From the NCBI GenBank assembly GCA_016793775.1, contig JAEULK010000011.1, forward strand, positions 2,686-66,685: 64,000 nucleotides of DNA, written 5' to 3'. Position numbers and translations under genes: made by a program. Positions 1 to 7,276 of this stretch are shown in pieces. Numbering within the stretch: the stretch's first letter is position 1; every line of letters begins with the position of its first letter. Under the pieces are notes generated by a model. The model worked only from the letters and a program-made list of their open reading frames with translations, did no database searches and was not told the DNA's origin. This DNA is from Sphingopyxis sp. GTDB taxonomy: Bacteria; Pseudomonadota; Alphaproteobacteria; Sphingomonadales; Sphingomonadaceae.

Positions 1-798
1 ATGCGGCAGCGTTTCGGCCTGTCTGGGATATACAACGCGACCTATCGACCGTTCTCGGTCGAACACGCGCCTCTTGGCTTCCTCAAGCGCGCGCGCGGGG
101 GCCTCGGTCCAGATGTGGGGTGCCTTCGCGTCGCCAATGGAGAAAAGCCAAAGGAAGGGAATGCAGGTCACTTCCATCGCGGGAAGCTTGCCAACGTTAG
201 TGACCTCGGCCCTCACATGAGCGCTGATAAAATCGCCATGGGTTTCACTATGCCTCAGTTCGTATCGATCAACATTTACGTTGTTTATCTTCACCCATGG
301 GCGCTGAGCCATGCGCGCAATATCGTTGGACTGAATAACGGCAAGCGCGTTTTTCTCAGCGATTCCCAGCGCATCCCCAGCCCCCTTGGCGGCCTCCTGA
401 GCGATTTCTACCGTTCTTTCAGTCGCCACGGCAGCGCGCTTCGCATACCAGGCGGCGGCAATGGCAGCGCCCATGGTGAAAGCGCCGAGGACGAGGCCGA
501 CGCCACCAAGCACGACTTGCCACCAAGACCAATGGGAACTGTCATAGGCAGCGTCAGCCGCTTTCCACTGGGCGCAAAGATCGGACTTGCGGTCATCGCG
601 GCCACGCTCGCAACCCTCATCTGGGCGCGGGGAAATTGGCTGTTCTGGGGCAGCAGGATCGGTGGGCGCGGCCTTGCTGGTTACGGCCTTGGCAGCTTGG
701 GGATTTTCGCTCTGAGCGCCGCCCTGTTTGCTTGGGCTAGCCCCTACTAAGGCTAGTCCCGCAACACCAATGAGGATGCACCTATAGCCTCTAAGCAT
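1..798 (-). CDS. Membrane-anchored hypothetical protein, 3'-truncated by the window edge (absent from the ORF track)
   Basis: Hand translation from ATG at 798 is open to base 1: MLRGYRCILIGVAGLALVGASP (signal-like)...DLCAQWKAADAA...WSWWQVVLGGVGLVLGAFTMGAAIAAAWYA (TM)...QRPWV...VTNVGKLPAMEV. The track's 1..750 + ORF is its antisense shadow. Confidence 0.75.
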   Translation of the reverse strand, partial: MLRGYRCILIGVAGLALVGASPSKQGGAQSENPQAAKAVTSKAAPTDPAAPEQPISPRPDEGCERGRDDRKSDLCAQWKAADAAYDSSHWSWWQVVLGGVGLVLGAFTMGAAIAAAWYAKRAAVATERTVEIAQEAAKGAGDALGIAEKNALAVIQSNDIARMAQRPWVKINNVNVDRYELRHSETHGDFISAHVRAEVTNVGKLPAMEVTCIPFLWLFSIGDAKAPHIWTEAPARALEEAKRRVFDRERSIGRVVYPRQAETLPH

Positions 799-992
799 TG
801 CAGCATGAACGCCGCTGAGAAGCCGCCCCGGCTGATCTTGTTGTTAAGGTTCCGCTCGTTCTCTGTGACGCCAACCGACGCCAGCTTTTCCGCAAGCTGC
901 GCATAGGTAACCCCCCGCCTTTTCAGCTCGCCTTTTAACAAGTTTTTGGCGCGAGTCTCATACTCAACGGTGGCAGGATCGGCCTTCGCCAT
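753..992 (-). CDS. DUF6471-like small HTH transcriptional regulator
   Basis: 79 aa, LLKGELKRRGVTYAQLAEKL...NLNNKISRGGFSAAF. XRE-like HTH, divergent from the transposase. Confidence 0.8.
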   Translation of the reverse strand: MAKADPATVEYETRAKNLLKGELKRRGVTYAQLAEKLASVGVTENERNLNNKISRGGFSAAFMLQCLEAIGASSLVLRD

Positions 993-1005
993 ATCAGCAT
1001 CCTTT

Positions 1006-1025
1006 TATCATCAAAAATGATGATA
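1006..1025. promoter_or_regulatory. Putative operator in the repressor/transposase divergent promoter
   Basis: Perfect inverted repeat TATCATCA-AAAA-TGATGATA, 13 bp from the HTH start; TTGACT at 1033-1038. Confidence 0.6.
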
Positions 1026-1085
1026 TAGACCCTTGACTTTGGTTATGTCTACCCTCATATCCGGTGCACAACATCACTGGATACG

Positions 1086-2060
1086 ATGACAATGACCACC
1101 AAAGGCCAACATTTCCTCCTCTCTGCCAAGGCTCGCACTCTGAGCCTCAAGGCTGTTTTCACCATGGGCGAAGAGGGCGCCTACAAGACGTTCTGCCAGA
1201 TGCGCTGGCCTGAGACGGACGGCGAGGCTGTGTGCCCGCGCTGCGGCTGTGTCGAAACCTACGACATTGCCACCCGCCGCAAGTTCAAGTGCGTTGCCTG
1301 TCACCACCAGTTCTCGGTCACCAGCGGCACGATCTTCGCCAGCCGCAAGCTGGGCTTCGTCGATCTTCTCGCCGCAATCGTCATCTTCGTGAACGGCGCC
1401 AAGGGCATTGCTGCCCTGCAACTGAGCCGCGATCTAGATTGCCAGTACAAGACCGCCTTCGTGCTTACCCACAAGCTGCGCGAAGCAATGGCGCGTGAGC
1501 AGATGGGTCGCCAGCTCGACGGCATTGTCGAAATCGACGGCGCCTATTTCGGCGGCTACGTGAAGCCGGAAAACCACAAGGACGACCGCAAGGACCGCCG
1601 TCTGGTCGCCAACCGTTCGGGCAAGCGCCAGTGCGTCGTCGTGATGCGCGAGCGCGGCGGTAAGTCGCTTCCCTTCGTCGTCGCCAACGAAGGCGACGCC
1701 GTTCCTTACGTCCGCGATCATGTCGCCAACCTTGCCGTTCTCCACGCCGACGAAGGCACCGGCTGGGATGCCCTCCACGCCGGTTGGATGACTGAGCGCG
1801 TCAATCACTCGGTCCAGTTCTTCGACAAGGGTGCATGCACCAATCAGGCCGAAAGCTATTTCAGCCGCCTTCGCCGGATGGAAGTCGGCACCCACCACCA
1901 TATCGCCGGTCCGTACATCGGCGCCTATGCCCGCGAAGCTTCATGGCGCGAAGATAACCGCCGCGTATCGAACGGCGATCAGGCTGCGATGGTAACGGCC
2001 GCGGCGATGGCCTCGCGCGTCAGCCGGGACTGGAAGGGCTACTGGCAGCGAACCAACTAA
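1086..2060 (+). CDS. IS1595-family DDE transposase with N-terminal Zn ribbon
   Basis: CPRCG...FKCVAC Zn ribbon, SVTSGTIF, EIDGAYFGG, ADE, NQAESYFSRLRR, YAREASWR; reading frame intact. Confidence 0.95.
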   Translation: MTMTTKGQHFLLSAKARTLSLKAVFTMGEEGAYKTFCQMRWPETDGEAVCPRCGCVETYDIATRRKFKCVACHHQFSVTSGTIFASRKLGFVDLLAAIVIFVNGAKGIAALQLSRDLDCQYKTAFVLTHKLREAMAREQMGRQLDGIVEIDGAYFGGYVKPENHKDDRKDRRLVANRSGKRQCVVVMRERGGKSLPFVVANEGDAVPYVRDHVANLAVLHADEGTGWDALHAGWMTERVNHSVQFFDKGACTNQAESYFSRLRRMEVGTHHHIAGPYIGAYAREASWREDNRRVSNGDQAAMVTAAAMASRVSRDWKGYWQRTN

Positions 2061-2455
2061 GAACAAGCGCCGAACACCATGGGAATCCGGGACACATAAA
2101 GCAGACCTTATATGCGCCTGTGCATAACGTGGTGTGCAAAATATGCTCTAAAATGCCCTCAGAGGGCACAGGAAGCGCGTTAACCAAGCGGAGTACTCCT
2201 CTTGGCATTTTTGCGATTGTCGCATCCACAGGGCTTTAAAACCGAAAATTTGGCACTCTCTTGCGACAAGTGCTTGCCTCTAAACCTGAACGGCCCTAAA
2301 CAGCAAAAGGCCCCGGACGGTGGAAACGTCCGAGGCCTCGAGAGCCCCGCGCTGGTGGCGGGGGATTTGCTATAGCGAGGGGGTTTTATACCCCGGGGAT
2401 AGCAAGGTCAACTGCCACCACGCGCATCAGAAGCGTTTTAATGGTGGAGTTCGAC

Positions 2456-2728
2456 ATGGCTACATACAACGTCACGATCTTGTGCGGCGCGTGCAAGTGC
2501 CCAGCGCAAACCGTCGCTAATCCGAAACCTCATGACAAGGTGACCTGTCCCAGGTGCAACCGAAGCGACCGTTTCGATAACGTCCATCGGACGGTGGGCG
2601 AGCATGTCCAATATGAGACTGCCCGCGCCCTCAATGAAAGCATGGCCCGCGCCACTCGCGGCAGCCGCTTCGTTAAGTTCAAGCCAAAGCACCTCCCCCA
2701 GCGGTCGTTCCGCTGGATTGCCGGCTAG
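2456..2728 (+). CDS. Small Zn-ribbon protein (90 aa)
   Basis: CGAC...CPRC pairs; GGTGGAG SD at 2443-2449 supports the ATG at 2456. Confidence 0.65.
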   Translation: MATYNVTILCGACKCPAQTVANPKPHDKVTCPRCNRSDRFDNVHRTVGEHVQYETARALNESMARATRGSRFVKFKPKHLPQRSFRWIAG

Positions 2729-2964: not shown

Positions 2965-3129
2965 TCAGGGACGAATGTTTGCGAGGCAATCCGCTGGCGG
3001 TTTTGATGCGGCCTTTTTGCGGTCCACGGACATCGACACGCCTTCGGCCTGACGATACTCGTATCGAGGCATCTTCAGATCAAAGACGACCTTAGGCCGT
3101 GCGTTCGCCCCGCTGCTCTTTTTAGACAT
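2965..3129 (-). CDS. 54-aa basic hypothetical protein coupled to the Ntn hydrolase
   Basis: GGAGG SD then ATG overlapping the last codons of the upstream gene; MSKKSSGANARPKVVFDLKMPRYEY. Confidence 0.5.
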   Translation of the reverse strand: MSKKSSGANARPKVVFDLKMPRYEYRQAEGVSMSVDRKKAASKPPADCLANIRP

Positions 3130-3970
3130 AATCTGCCTCCAAGGGGTTAAGCTTTCGATCAAAGTGATGCTTCCGTTTTATCCACTTAAAACCTTCGTGT
3201 TTCGTTACGACGCAAATGTCGGTTTCACCGCCGACGGTGTCAGCGCCGGGTAGGAAACGCACGTATGCCTTCGTTGTTTCAACCAAGAAATTTGCGAGCG
3301 CAATCGCGTCCTGTACAGGCATCGCGGGCGATATCAACGGGGCTCTGGTCCGACTTTCTATGTGGGTCAGCACCGCGTCTAAGTTTTCTGGCAACAATCC
3401 AATGTCTAAGAGCGCGTTCGGCAAAAATTGGCTGTAGCCGTTTACGATGCGGTTGATCGCTTCGGGTTGGCCGTCATAGAGGATATCAAATTCGTCCTTC
3501 CCCGCGAGGCATTCCGGCTCTGAGCACTCGCCATTCACGATCTGAATGCGCCATATTTCGCCGTGCATTTCCTTCGCGCAATTGCCCGCGATCCAGAACT
3601 GAAATTCGCTTTGCGGCTTGTCTTCCAGCTTCTGAAAATGCTCCTCAAAGAAGAACGTCCGCGCACGGTTGGCCACCTGTTCGATGGTGTAGTTTTTCGG
3701 GTCGATATGCCATTCGTCGTCTTCCGCGGTGAATCTCGCCCGAAGATCCTTGGCCAGCGTGCTAATGGAGATCGGACCGATGTTCCCCATGCCACACGTC
3801 ATCGCGGCAATTGGAAGACCCTTGCGCAGGTTGAACACCTTATTGCCGTGGGAATAGACATTGGCGATCAAGGGGCGGCCATCATCCAGCGAGGATTCAA
3901 TGAGTGATGACGCGCTATCGGCAGCAAACACGATACAGTCGTGTACTTTGACCGCGACGCAAACCGTCAT
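3122..3970 (-). CDS. Proteasome beta/HslV-like Ntn-hydrolase fold protein
   Basis: N-terminus M-TVCVAVKVHDCIVFAADS matches the Thr1...AAD pattern; GNKVF Lys; C-terminal DTVGGETDICVV; SD GAGGGGG. Confidence 0.7.
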   Translation of the reverse strand: MTVCVAVKVHDCIVFAADSASSLIESSLDDGRPLIANVYSHGNKVFNLRKGLPIAAMTCGMGNIGPISISTLAKDLRARFTAEDDEWHIDPKNYTIEQVANRARTFFFEEHFQKLEDKPQSEFQFWIAGNCAKEMHGEIWRIQIVNGECSEPECLAGKDEFDILYDGQPEAINRIVNGYSQFLPNALLDIGLLPENLDAVLTHIESRTRAPLISPAMPVQDAIALANFLVETTKAYVRFLPGADTVGGETDICVVTKHEGFKWIKRKHHFDRKLNPLEADYV

Positions 3971-4032
3971 AAATCCCCCTCACCGCCGATGAATCATAGT
4001 GTGCCGTTCATGTCAATCACTCGCGACGGCAA

Positions 4033-4467
4033 CTAACGTACCAGCTCCCATTCAAGATATTGACCGCCGCGAGTTTCAACGTTGCGAACCAATGATTGAT
4101 CGCGACGATCACGAAGGCACGTTGAGACGCGCTTGGTCATCAACCCGAGCAACTTGGGGGTCGCGGTCAATCCGCGCTGTACGATCATCTGAGCGGCAAT
4201 CTCACGCGACGTAAGCGGCTTGTTCGCAACGCGCATGATCGACAGGACGACGCGGGACATTTCGCCGCGCTTCGACCAGTCGTCGGGCGGGCGGACGAAC
4301 TTGGGGGCAATGGCGGGAATATCCAGATCGGGCGCGACCAGCTTTATCGCGGCGTCGAGCGTTTCCAGATCGCGCGCCATCTGAGCCAGCGCGTCCTGTG
4401 TCCGCGTCATCTCGCCCGCCAGTTCCGCGCGGCGCTTCACCAGCCCTGTCACCATGTAATCTGTCAT
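4033..4467 (-). CDS. Coiled-coil plus winged-helix hypothetical protein at the transposon end
   Basis: N-terminal heptads (LVKRRAELAGEM...LETLDAAIKL); C-terminal wHTH-like RVVLSIMR...PLTSREIA...LEWEL; starts 67 bp inside the terminus. Confidence 0.8.
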   Translation of the reverse strand: MTDYMVTGLVKRRAELAGEMTRTQDALAQMARDLETLDAAIKLVAPDLDIPAIAPKFVRPPDDWSKRGEMSRVVLSIMRVANKPLTSREIAAQMIVQRGLTATPKLLGLMTKRVSTCLRDRRDQSLVRNVETRGGQYLEWELVR

Positions 4468-4469
4468 GG

Positions 4470-4534
4470 TGCTACATTACGAAAAGTTCACTAGACAGGG
4501 CAGATGGTCGTTGGTGCGTTTGCTACATAATGCC
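4470..4534 (-). repeat. Transposon terminal sequence with subterminal repeat
   Basis: TGCTACATAA (4521-4530) and TGCTACATTA (4470-4479) are direct repeats 51 bp apart; terminus GGCATTATGTAGC on the - strand. Confidence 0.75.
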
Positions 4535-5260
4535 GAGCGCCTCGCCGGGATCGAGGTCGGGCAAGATGCCGGGCAGGCACGCCGCCATCAGCGACTTGCC
4601 CGCGCCGGGCGGGCCGACCATCAGCAGATTATGCCCGCCCGCCGCGGCGATTTCGAGCGCGCGCTTGGCGACCTCCTGCCCCTTGACCTGCGCGAGGTCG
4701 GCCATGCGGCGCGGCTCCTCGACCTCACCGGGGCGCGGCGGGGCGAGCAGTGCGCGGCCCTTGAAATGGTTGAGCAGCGAGAGGAGGTCGGGCGCCGCGA
4801 GCACCTCGACATTGCCCGCCCACGCCGCCTCAGGCCCCTGCGCGACGGGGCAGATCAGCCCGCGATCCTGGCTGCCCGCGTGAAGCGCCGCGAGCAGCAC
4901 CCCGGGCGAGGCGGCGACGCGGCCGTCGAGGCCGAGCTCGCCGACGACCACATAGGCGCCGATCGTTTCGGCATCGATGACGCCCATCGCGCCGAGCAGC
5001 GCCAGCGCGATGGGCAGGTCGTAGTGCGATCCCTCCTTGGGCAGGTCGGCGGGCGACAGGTTGACGGTGATGACCTTGGGCGGGAGCGACAGGCCGATCG
5101 CGGCGATCGCGGCGCGGACGCGCTCGCGGCTTTCGCCGACCGCCTTGTCGGGCAGGCCGACGACGACGAAGCGCGGCACGCCGGGGGTGATCTGGCACTG
5201 CACCTCGACCCCGCGCGCTTCGAGGCCGAGATAGGCGACGGTGGACACGATCGCGACCAT
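4535..5260 (-). pseudogene. comM: 5' half (242 codons) of comM/yifB Mg-chelatase-like AAA+ ATPase, interrupted
   Basis: GLPDKAVGESRERVRAA, VNLSPADLPKEGSHYDLPIA, VKGQEVAKRALEIAAAGGHNLLMVGPPGAGKS. After LDPGEAL it reads into the element (GIM-stop). Full ComM is about twice this length. Confidence 0.95.
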
Positions 5261-5409
5261 GGATATCCCCCAAAGCGGACCCCAAAACGGACGATGTGCC
5301 CGGTTTGTTCTCATGCCCTTTTAGGGCAAAGTCGCGCGAAGGCGAGTCTTTTCGGATGTTGGCGAAGGTGCCGCGCAGCGTGACGTTTGGGGCAAGCCCG
5401 ATTGTCGAT

Positions 5410-7061: not shown

Positions 7062-7276
7062 GCTTCCAGGCCTATGTGGACAATGTCGCGGCCAAGACCG
7101 GCAAATCGCCCGAGGATCTGAAGGCGATCGCGATCGAAAAGGGACTCGCCGACGACGAGGGGCTGGCCCCCGGGGTCAAGGCCGGCACGATCATCGACTG
7201 GCTGAAGCAGGATTACGACCTCGGCCACGGCCACGCCATGTCGATCGTCGCCTATCTCAAAGGCAAACGGAGCTAG
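7058..7276 (+). CDS. DUF4287-like small protein
   Basis: MSFQAYVDNVAAKTGKSP...WLKQDYDLGHGHAMSIVAYLK; ATGA overlap with the DoxX stop. Confidence 0.85.
   Translation: MSFQAYVDNVAAKTGKSPEDLKAIAIEKGLADDEGLAPGVKAGTIIDWLKQDYDLGHGHAMSIVAYLKGKRS

What the first reader, a model, noticed from the sequence alone, without database searches (positions are those of the whole stretch)
4033..4534. Terminal coiled-coil/winged-helix protein with an end-motif copy at its start: candidate target selector or transposase partner
Seen: the 144-aa gene starts 67 bp inside the terminus. A second copy of the terminal core (T[T/A]ATGTAGCA) ends 2 bp before its ATG. The TAATGT within that copy is 6 nt upstream of the ATG and there is no SD, which fits a leaderless transcript repressed by whatever binds the ends. 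Inference: a dimerising DNA-binding protein wired to the end sequence is likelier to be core transposition machinery than cargo, and could supply comM recognition.
Basis: partly seen in the sequence, partly recalled or inferred. Interest (0 to 1): 0.72.

Follow-up and report, generated by a model that had tools for sequence, protein, structure and literature searches.

The report
Target-choosing protein of IS1595 transposons
This small DNA-binding protein sits at one tip of a 4.8-kb jumping gene that has split comM, and comparison with about 60 related elements indicates that it, not the transposase, decides the exact base pair where the element lands.

Summary
The gene is real: window 4033-4467 (-), 144 aa, ATG 68 nt inside the terminus. 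It belongs to a 4825-bp IS1595-family transposon with perfect 25-bp terminal inverted repeats and an 8-bp target duplication. The transposon splits comM at codon 245.

The "second copy of the end motif" is present (9/10 match, 2 nt before the ATG) but is not conserved. Only 2 of 61 relatives show anything similar. What is conserved is a -10-like hexamer about 6 nt before the ATG and no Shine-Dalgarno sequence (3 of 61). That fits a leaderless mRNA.

The protein, the transposase and a DUF6471 gene form a constant trio in every complete element examined.

Relatives insert to the base pair, in both orientations, at two comM sites, four GT2 glycosyltransferase sites, 6 nt past tRNA-Arg or tRNA-Gln, and elsewhere. 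On a 61-protein tree the target follows this protein (12 label changes, minimum 11, shuffled mean 24.8). It does not follow the transposase (16 changes, shuffled 18.1). Elements with 93-95% identical transposases but 35-37% identical selectors sit in different targets.

The predicted fold is a heptad-patterned helix plus a winged helix. All evidence is comparative; nothing has been tested biochemically. I found no published description.

The parts
4033..4467 (-). p144: 144-aa gene for the proposed target selector (N-terminal heptad-patterned helix 2-44, linker, winged helix-turn-helix 62-142)
   Evidence: ORF. No Pfam, NCBIfam or PADLOC hit. AF2 model with pLDDT 83. Foldseek finds only generic winged-helix regulators. 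The tree clusters by target.
4468..4510 (-). 43-nt leader between the terminal repeat and the ATG. It holds the -10-like hexamer TAATGT (4474-4479) 6 nt before the ATG, and no Shine-Dalgarno sequence. It includes the 9/10 look-alike of the terminal core (4470-4479).
   Evidence: The strict sigma-70 consensus scan finds nothing.
4511..4535 (-). Terminal inverted repeat at the p144 end (25 bp, perfect match to the other end, which lies 265-289 nt before the window start = L005 2396-2420)
   Evidence: Nearly invariant in 28 delimited elements and found in 119 or more loci of Alphaproteobacteria.
4536..4543 (+). 8-bp target-site duplication AGCGCCTC (the other copy is at L005 2388-2395, outside the window)
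   Evidence: The same 8 bp of comM (GARGCRCT on the coding strand) flank about 20 independent elements.
4536..5314 (-). 5' fragment of comM (ChlI and Mg_chelatase N-terminal domains), cut at codon 245. The 3' fragment is at L005 about 1925-2395, outside the window.
1086..2060 (+). IS1595-family DDE transposase, 324 aa (Zn-ribbon plus DDE_Tnp_IS1595)
   Evidence: Pfam 1.5e-35 and 1e-13. NCBIfam transpos_IS1595 1.1e-41.
753..992 (-). DUF6471 gene (79 aa), divergent from the transposase gene. Third constant gene of the element.
   Evidence: Pfam 6.1e-32. Present beside the transposase in 26 of 28 delimited elements and 16 of 17 later ones.
993..1085 (.). Divergent promoter region between the DUF6471 and transposase genes, conserved in relatives (TTGTCA-17-TATGAT type)
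3122..3970 (-). Cargo: 282-aa protein of unknown function, directly downstream of p144
   Evidence: No Pfam, NCBIfam, PADLOC or PDB match. phrog_5990 (unknown function) 2.4e-14 over residues 216-275.
2441..2728 (+). Cargo: 95-aa CxxC zinc-ribbon protein
   Evidence: Weak ECs_2282_CxxC hit at 1.5e-4, below the family cut-off. Homologues in L041 and L063.
1..798 (-). Cargo: most of a 300-aa protein of unknown function with hydrophobic stretches (full gene L005 2581-3483)
   Evidence: Weak relatives at the same place in L037, L044, L049, L065.

Best explanation
The gene encodes the target selector of a site-specific IS1595-family transposon.

Shown by sequence comparison:
- The element is a 4825-bp unit with 25-bp inverted repeats and an 8-bp duplication.
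- It always carries three genes: a single-chain DDE transposase, a small DUF6471 protein read divergently from it, and this 144-aa protein, whose ATG lies 67-72 nt from one end.
- Members insert at a handful of sites with base-pair precision and in either orientation.
- Which site is used follows the lineage of the 144-aa protein and not that of the transposase, DUF6471, the terminal repeats, the 66-nt leader or the cargo.

Inferred:
- The protein dimerises through its N-terminal heptad helix.
- Its winged helix reads a specific sequence in or next to the target. Here that is the comM segment encoding E-A-L-E-V-S-M.
- It recruits or licenses the transposase-end complex, so that strand transfer occurs at a fixed 8 bp.
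- Because both ends are identical, the complex is symmetric and orientation is random.
- Destroying or occupying the unique site would explain why there is one copy per genome.
- The gene is probably expressed from a leaderless mRNA started by the -10-like hexamer 6 nt upstream of the ATG.
For: (1) Constant trio. In 401 Sphingomonadaceae genomes, p144 is found in 37 and the transposase in 40, with 34 shared. The 4 apparent transposase-only genomes each have a divergent p144-like gene (HMM E 5e-9 to 2e-16) beside a 35-44% identical transposase. All 17 complete elements found through the repeat alone contain p144 and the transposase.

(2) Base-pair precise targets with 8-bp duplications, in both orientations: comM codon 245 (about 20 loci), comM codon 309, GT2 gene codons 155, 169, 177 and 178, 6 nt past tRNA-Arg and tRNA-Gln, the mnmG-mnmE spacer, and a palindrome.

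(3) On the 61-protein p144 tree, target labels need 12 changes (minimum 11; shuffled mean 24.8; 0 of 200 shuffles as low). comM245 forms one clade (99/92) and comM309 one clade (100/99). On the transposase tree the same labels behave as random: 16 changes against 18.1 shuffled, and each group is as scattered as its shuffles.

(4) Natural swaps:
- L005 (comM245) vs L042 (palindrome): transposase 95%, DUF6471 92%, p144 37% identical.
- L047 (GT155) vs L049 (comM309): transposase 93%, first 66 nt 91%, p144 35%.
- Conversely, L005 vs L040, both at comM245: transposase only 67%.

(5) Fold. The model shows a long helix with a/d heptad hydrophobics followed by a winged helix. Clade-specific residues concentrate just before and inside the winged helix (62-66, 70, 71, 74, 88, 111, 116, 120-121), while several arginines are invariant.

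(6) No stretch inside the elements matches the target beyond chance, so a nucleic-acid guide is unlikely.

(7) Transposase and p144 are single copy per genome in about 40 genomes.
Against: - Nothing was tested biochemically. DNA binding, dimerisation and contact with the transposase are all inferred.
- The Foldseek matches are weak and generic (best E 3.7e-3, TM about 0.35-0.43).
- Related elements share ancestry, so the label-on-tree statistics overstate independence. The argument rests mainly on the discordance with the transposase tree and on both orientations being seen at each site.
- Three elements break the rule. L039, inside the comM245 clade, lies in a TraI-like gene. L181 and L184 have flanks that do not match their clade's target.
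- GT178 and GT155 are not each monophyletic, because that part of the tree is unresolved.
- The recognised DNA sequence could not be defined. All targets lie in conserved DNA, so conservation there is uninformative.
- One genome (G049) has a p144 homologue with no transposase found.
Confidence: 0.65

Rival explanations
1. p144 is a transcriptional regulator or transposition inhibitor of the element, binding operators at its own promoter and perhaps in the transposase-DUF6471 promoter region. Under this view target choice is made by something else.
For: It has the size and fold of a small winged-helix repressor. In some elements the p144 promoter motif has a near-copy in the transposase-DUF6471 intergenic region, for example a 19-nt inverted match in L053.
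Against: This does not explain why target site follows p144 while the transposase, DUF6471, the repeats and the leader are shared between elements with different targets. L047 and L049 share a 91% identical leader yet have 35% identical p144, so p144 is not co-evolving with its own promoter. The two roles are not exclusive.
Confidence: 0.15
2. The transposase itself (its Zn-ribbon N-terminus) or DUF6471 reads the target. p144 is a helper, for example in DNA bending or transpososome assembly, that merely happens to be linked.
For: Many IS transposases have intrinsic target preferences (general knowledge). DUF6471 is also constant and is probably a small helix-turn-helix protein.
Against: Transposases that are 93-95% identical, with only 8-12 differences in residues 1-90, and a 92% identical DUF6471, are found at unrelated targets. 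Transposases that are 66-67% identical are found at the same base pair. The transposase tree shows no clustering by target.
Confidence: 0.1
3. p144 binds the element ends, and acts as an end-recognition partner of the transposase, repressed by or repressing through the repeated terminal core.
For: There is a 9/10 copy of the terminal core 2 nt before the ATG in this element. The gene is always 67-72 nt from one end.
Against: The copy is absent from 59 of 61 relatives. The repeats are nearly invariant across elements whose p144 are only about 30% identical, and the most variable parts of p144 lie in and just before the DNA-binding domain.
Confidence: 0.07
4. p144 is cargo unrelated to transposition.
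For: No family annotation. Sources name it hypothetical protein.
Against: Position, orientation and presence are constant in every lineage examined, including those with 35-50% identical transposases and different repeats, while the true cargo varies from 0 to about 13 kb.
Confidence: 0.03

Closest known systems
Tn7-like transposons with TnsD/TniQ target selectors (including the comM-targeting Tn6022/AbaR group)
   Same: A separate, exchangeable DNA-binding protein directs a DDE transposon to one conserved chromosomal site such as comM or next to tRNA genes. There is one copy per genome, the elements carry variable and often defence cargo, and selector lineages correlate with attachment sites. 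What is known of Tn7 here is from my own knowledge, not a tool result.
   Different: The element has no TnsA, TnsB, TnsC or TniQ genes. It has a single 324-aa IS1595-type transposase and no AAA+ regulator. The selector has no TniQ domain or any Pfam match. Duplications are 8 bp, not 5 bp. Insertion is in both orientations and inside the recognised gene, not oriented and downstream of it. The tRNA classes, which land 6 nt past the gene, are an exception to the last point.
IS1595 family insertion sequences (ISfinder), including subgroups said to carry passenger genes (ISNwi1+, ISPna2+; recalled from memory, not verified here)
   Same: Zn-ribbon plus DDE_Tnp_IS1595 transposase, terminal inverted repeats, 8-bp duplication.
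   Different: Ordinary members are about 1-kb single-gene elements with multiple copies and no known site specificity. These are 1.6-17 kb, single copy and site-specific, and they always carry the p144 and (nearly always) DUF6471 genes. Database records annotate the neighbours only as hypothetical proteins. No paper linking IS1595 to comM targeting or to DUF6471 was found.
Small winged-helix transcription factors (MarR/ZitR, PadR/LmrR, Fur/PerR, RosR)
   Same: The fold of residues about 62-142 superposes at 2.7-4 A over about 77-85 residues.
   Different: There is no sequence relationship. The N-terminal 44-residue helix and proline-rich linker are not part of those families. The context is a transposon end, not a regulon.

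Membership tests
IS1595 family transposable element | DDE transposase with N-terminal zinc ribbon and the DDE_Tnp_IS1595 (ISXO2-like) domain | tested here: met
   PF12762 1.5e-35, PF12760 1e-13. NF033547 1.1e-41, above the family cut-off.
IS1595 family transposable element | Terminal inverted repeats and 8-bp target-site duplication | tested here: met
   Perfect 25-bp repeats and AGCGCCTC duplicated. An 8-bp duplication is seen in 26 of 28 delimited relatives. That 8 bp is the family norm is from memory.
IS1595 family transposable element | Simple IS: about 1 kb, transposase as the only gene | tested here: not met
   The element is 4825 bp with six genes. Relatives are 1.6-17 kb. It is a transposon built on an IS1595-type transposase, not a plain IS.
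Tn7-like / TniQ-guided transposons | TnsB-type transposase, TnsC AAA+ regulator and a TniQ/TnsD-domain selector | tested here: not met
   No such domains in any gene of the element. p144 has no Pfam hit.
Tn7-like / TniQ-guided transposons | Insertion at one conserved attachment site determined by the selector lineage | tested here: met
   This is likeness in how it works, not membership.
Tn7-like / TniQ-guided transposons | Single fixed orientation relative to the attachment site | tested here: not met
   At comM245 the p144 end lies on the 5' side in 10 sequences and on the 3' side in 6. Both orientations also occur at comM309, GT155 and GT178.
Winged helix-turn-helix DNA-binding proteins | Three-helix bundle plus beta-hairpin wing | tested here: met
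   AF2 model: H69-81, H87-97, H104-123, strands 127-130 and 139-142, with pLDDT about 85-92 in this part. The top Foldseek matches are all winged-helix regulators.
HARE-HTH (PF05066) | Match to the family profile | tested here: not met
   No Pfam match at E<=0.01. The only link is one UniRef name for a homologue.
Leaderless mRNA gene | No Shine-Dalgarno sequence and a -10 element placed so that transcription starts at or next to the start codon | tested here: inconclusive
   A Shine-Dalgarno-like 4-mer occurs in 3 of 61 relatives. TAnnnT lies within -14..-5 in 32 of 61, and TAATGT is the commonest hexamer at -12..-7. The strict consensus scan finds no promoter. The transcription start was not measured.
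Coiled-coil dimer | Heptad a/d hydrophobic pattern over a long helix; dimer formation | tested here: inconclusive
   The a/d positions are hydrophobic in 10 of 13 cases over residues 2-44, and the model gives a single 43-residue helix. Oligomeric state is not testable with a single-chain model.

The most novel reading that the evidence does not exclude
This is a minimal two-protein, site-specific DDE transposition system: a 324-aa IS1595 transposase aimed by an exchangeable 144-aa winged-helix protein. Nature has repeatedly retargeted it, to the base pair, by swapping or evolving the small protein. The observed targets are comM (two sites), a GT2 gene (four sites), tRNA-Arg, tRNA-Gln, the mnmG-mnmE spacer and others. 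More than 5000 protein clusters at 50% identity are available as a reservoir of specificities.
Probability: 0.6. Interest if true: 0.85.

Novelty: new variant of a known kind. Interest (0 to 1): 0.8.

Why it matters
Dedicated target selectors are well established for the large multi-protein Tn7 family. The simple single-transposase IS families are generally thought to land with loose preferences.

If a 144-aa winged-helix protein alone aims an IS1595 transposase at one base pair, three things follow:
- It would be the smallest natural protein-guided DNA insertion system.
- It would explain how a widespread group of alphaproteobacterial islands, some carrying anti-phage systems, choose comM, glycosyltransferase and tRNA sites.
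- It would offer a large natural library of selector-target pairs (5204 clusters at 50% identity) for studying how DNA-recognition specificity evolves, and possibly for targeted insertion tools.

It also adds another mobile element that silences comM, a gene needed for natural transformation.

Tried and rejected
- Family libraries. Pfam, NCBIfam and PADLOC give nothing for p144. PHROGs gives one weak hit of unknown function.
- PDB sequence search with the family profile. Only coiled-coil noise was returned.
- Foldseek against the PDB. Only generic winged-helix regulators were found, and no transposon protein.
- The search for related loci with the 37-sequence alignment. It failed because the family is too divergent for a conserved 7-10 column stretch. 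I replaced it with a scan for the terminal repeat.
- Nucleic-acid guide idea. The longest exact matches between each target (62 nt) and its element's interior are 8-12 nt, no better than shuffled targets. Rejected.
- End-motif repeat idea. Tested across 61 relatives and rejected as a family feature.
- Consensus promoter and terminator scan of 3900-4600. Nothing found.
- Fusion search (selector fused to transposase). The best 150 of 5204 family representatives are all 101-212 aa stand-alone proteins.
- Literature. Searches for IS1595 with comM, passenger genes, ISNwi1, DUF6471 and target site found nothing relevant.
- Recognition sequence. I considered defining it from occupied sites. All targets lie in strongly conserved DNA and about 20 sequences give too little power, so I left this as a next step.

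Full report
**What is at the coordinates.**
The minus strand of window 4033-4467 holds a 144-aa ORF. Just beyond its start, the comM gene (ChlI and Mg_chelatase domains) stops abruptly at about 4536. The window is part of contig C53 of its genome, and the rest of comM lies about 300 nt before the window start. Reading the contig (L005) shows a perfect 25-bp inverted repeat, CGGCATTATGTAGCAAACGCACCAA, at L005 2396-2420 and at 7196-7220 (window 4511-4535). Each copy is flanked by AGCGCCTC.

The finding therefore lies at one tip of a 4825-bp transposon that has split comM at codon 245 with an 8-bp duplication. Starting from the end that lies before the window, its genes are:
- a 300-aa protein of unknown function;
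- a DUF6471 protein (79 aa);
- an IS1595-family transposase (324 aa, zinc ribbon plus DDE domain), read divergently from DUF6471;
- a 95-aa CxxC protein;
- a 282-aa protein of unknown function;
- the 144-aa protein, here called p144.

**The observation.**
The ATG is 68 nt from the terminus. TAATGTAGCA (4470-4479, minus strand) ends 2 nt before the ATG and matches 9 of 10 bases of the terminal core TTATGTAGCA. There is no Shine-Dalgarno sequence.

Whether this is more than chance needed relatives. I delimited 28 complete related elements, and later gathered 61 non-redundant p144-bearing ends. In these the ATG is always 67-72 nt from the repeat. The 10-mer copy is not conserved, however. Only 2 of the 61 match their own terminal core better than shuffled leaders at p<=0.05.

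What recurs is TAATGT, TATGTA or a similar TAnnnT hexamer, mostly 6 nt before the ATG. A Shine-Dalgarno-like 4-mer is almost never present (3 of 61), whereas 26 of 27 neighbouring DUF6471 genes have one nearby, although that control window was loose. I read this as a -10 element for a leaderless or nearly leaderless mRNA. In this one element the hexamer happens to extend into a look-alike of the end. A strict sigma-70 consensus scan finds no promoter, so this remains an inference.

**What the protein looks like.**
No profile library recognises p144. A homology search finds 278 close relatives named only as hypothetical proteins, from Sphingopyxis, Sphingobium and Novosphingobium. A profile search finds 5204 clusters at 50% identity; the best 150 listed are stand-alone proteins of 101-212 aa.

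AlphaFold2 on a 37-sequence alignment gives a confident model with mean pLDDT 83. It has a 43-residue N-terminal helix, a proline-rich linker and a winged helix-turn-helix. The long helix has hydrophobic residues at heptad a/d positions. Foldseek finds only generic winged-helix regulators such as ZitR/MarR, PadR, PerR/Fur and RosR, with weak scores.

**Core gene or cargo.**
In a sample of 401 Sphingomonadaceae genomes, p144 homologues occur in 37, always once. The transposase occurs in 40 at E<=1e-40, once in 39 of them. Thirty-four genomes have both.
- Of the 6 transposase-only genomes, 4 have a 35-44% identical transposase with a p144-like gene directly beside it (HMM E 5e-9 to 2e-16). The other 2 have only a contig-end fragment or a frameshifted transposase.
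- Of the 3 p144-only genomes, G337 has the canonical repeat before p144 and the contig ends soon after, and G296 is a 310-contig assembly. For G049 and G337 no transposase was found in the genome with this query.

They come from Sphingomonadales and also from Hyphomicrobiales, Rhodobacterales, Caulobacterales, Acetobacteraceae and Rhodospirillaceae. All 17 complete elements among them contain p144 and the transposase, and 16 contain DUF6471. Cargo between the constant genes ranges from nothing (a 1.6-kb element) to about 13 kb.

**Where the elements sit.**
Every delimited element has an 8-bp duplication, two of them imperfect. Insertions fall at a small number of sites with base-pair precision:
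- comM codon 245, with duplication GARGCRCT, in about 20 non-redundant loci;
- comM codon 309, with duplication GARTTYCA;
- a family-2 glycosyltransferase gene at codons 155, 169, 177 and 178;
- another GT2 gene at its DYP motif;
- 6 nt past tRNA-Arg(CCG/ACG) and tRNA-Gln(CTG);
- the mnmG-mnmE spacer;
- a palindromic sequence;
- a YadA-like adhesin gene.

Both orientations occur at each well-sampled site. At comM245 the split is 10 to 6. The occupants differ in cargo and in host genus. These are therefore repeated independent insertions, not one inherited event.

**What decides the site.**
On a maximum-likelihood tree of 61 p144 proteins, the 12 target labels need 12 changes, where 11 is the minimum. 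Shuffled labels need 24.8 on average, and none of 200 shuffles is as low. comM245 (16 rows) is one clade with 99/92 support and comM309 is one clade with 100/99. All GT2-targeting proteins form one clade whose sub-clades differ in position, including a pair shifted by exactly 3 bp.

On the transposase tree the same labels are scattered: 16 changes against 18.1 for shuffles.

The elements are mosaics. L005 and L042, and L047 and L049, share only the repeats and a 1.27-kb transposase-DUF6471 block at 84-88% nucleotide identity. This produces natural swap experiments:

| Pair | Targets | Transposase identity | DUF6471 identity | p144 identity |
|---|---|---|---|---|
| L005 vs L042 | comM245 vs palindrome | 95% | 92% | 37% |
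| L047 vs L049 | GT155 vs comM309 | 93% | 73% | 35% |
| L005 vs L040 | both comM245 | 67% | 49% | 49% |
| L049 vs L043 | both comM309 | 66% | 58% | 59% |

L047 and L049 also share a 91% identical 66-nt end and leader. No sequence inside any element matches its target beyond chance, which argues against a guide RNA. p144 is the only component that co-varies with the target.

Within p144, the positions that are fixed within clades but differ between them cluster just before and inside the winged helix (62-66, 70, 71, 74, 88, 111, 116, 120-121). R13, R72, R79, R113, W140 and other residues are invariant.

**Caveats.**
Relatives are not independent samples, so the shuffle statistics overstate significance. 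Three elements do not obey the rule: L039, in a TraI-like relaxase gene, and L181 and L184. They may be off-target events or later rearrangements. GT155 and GT178 are not each monophyletic in an unresolved part of the tree. The recognised DNA sequence is undefined. No experiment supports binding, dimerisation or contact with the transposase.

**Most likely mechanism.**
The transposase binds the two identical 25-bp ends. p144, probably as a dimer, binds a specific sequence at the target and recruits or licenses the end complex, fixing the 8-bp staggered cut. Because the complex is symmetric, orientation is random. The unique site is destroyed or occupied, which keeps the element at one copy per genome. 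DUF6471, always read divergently from the transposase across a conserved promoter region, is most simply a regulator, though a bridging role is possible. I put about 0.65 on p144 being the target selector. The rivals are a pure regulator (0.15), specificity residing in the transposase or DUF6471 (0.10), an end-binding partner as first proposed (0.07) and cargo (0.03).

**Comparison with what is known.**
In how it works, the system resembles Tn7-like transposons, whose TnsD/TniQ proteins choose sites such as glmS, comM or tRNA genes. It is not a member of that family. It has no TnsB, TnsC or TniQ domains, its duplications are 8 bp, and it inserts in both orientations and usually inside the recognised gene.

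By its transposase, repeats and duplication it belongs to the IS1595 family, but it fails the simple single-gene IS criterion. I recall that ISfinder lists IS1595 subgroups with passenger genes; I could not verify this here. Public records annotate only an IS1595 family transposase and hypothetical proteins. Six literature searches found nothing on IS1595-type site-specific insertion, comM targeting by this family or DUF6471.

I rate it a new variant of a known kind: a selector-guided transposon built on a different, much simpler chassis with an unrelated selector.

**Verdict.**
Interest 0.8.

Noticed in passing
L005 75-1745 (-) and L005 about 1925-1970 (contig upstream of the window): comM of this genome is broken a second time. 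About 140 codons after the transposon, the reading frame leaves comM after '...SGPLLDRI'. The adjoining DNA begins with a 556-aa large serine recombinase gene, which points to a second, unrelated integrative element in comM. In L070 the comM homologue also diverges after 'SGPLLD'.
   Followed up: partly
L054 8915-18408; L193, L194 3661-16865, L195 816-17410: A sister lineage has divergent terminal repeats and 46-50% identical transposases, but p144 of the comM309 clade. It forms 13-17 kb elements at exactly the comM309 site. Its cargo looks like anti-phage systems: two cyclase-effector pairs of Pycsar type, a prokaryotic E2 domain protein, an MmeI-like enzyme and a helicase.
   Followed up: partly
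L093 1456-1463, L068 2793-2800, L159 1931-1938, L102 3538-3545, L144: Two target classes land 6 nt past the 3' end of tRNA-Arg(CCG/ACG) or tRNA-Gln(CTG). These are non-disruptive sites, in contrast with the gene-splitting comM and GT2 classes.
   Followed up: partly
L039 8929-12278: An element whose p144 lies inside the comM245 clade sits in a TraI-like relaxase/helicase gene (AAA_30, TraI_2B) instead of comM. This may be an off-target hop into a conjugative element. L181 and L184 are two further mismatches between clade and flank.
   Followed up: partly
L053 8971-8989 and 10892-10910; window 993-1085: The p144 promoter motif (GATGCGTAATGTCATCATA in L053) has an inverted near-copy in the transposase-DUF6471 intergenic region. 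GTATCGC recurs in both places in other elements. This may be a shared operator that co-regulates the three core genes.
   Followed up: no
window 3122-3970 (-): The 282-aa gene directly after p144 begins MTVCVAV... and matches nothing except the C-terminal 60 residues of phrog_5990 (unknown function). A 26% identical homologue follows p144 in L095. Its function is unknown.
   Followed up: partly
one search hit table (P0003, P0013-15, P0021-22, P0025, P0027, P0069): Many metagenome or Logan contigs carrying close p144 homologues are 4.0-5.1 kb long, about the length of the element. They could be repeat-bounded assemblies or excised circular forms.
   Followed up: no
L066 7902-9490: This is the smallest relative, at 1589 bp. 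It has only p144 and a 50% identical transposase, no DUF6471 gene, divergent repeats and an imperfect duplication (GAGAATTC / GAAAACTC). Either it is a minimal ancestral form or it is decaying.
   Followed up: no
L108 1280-5333: This is a complete element in a Methyloceanibacter MAG. Its p144 homologue is split over two frames and displaced next to the transposase, so it is probably a pseudogene.
   Followed up: no
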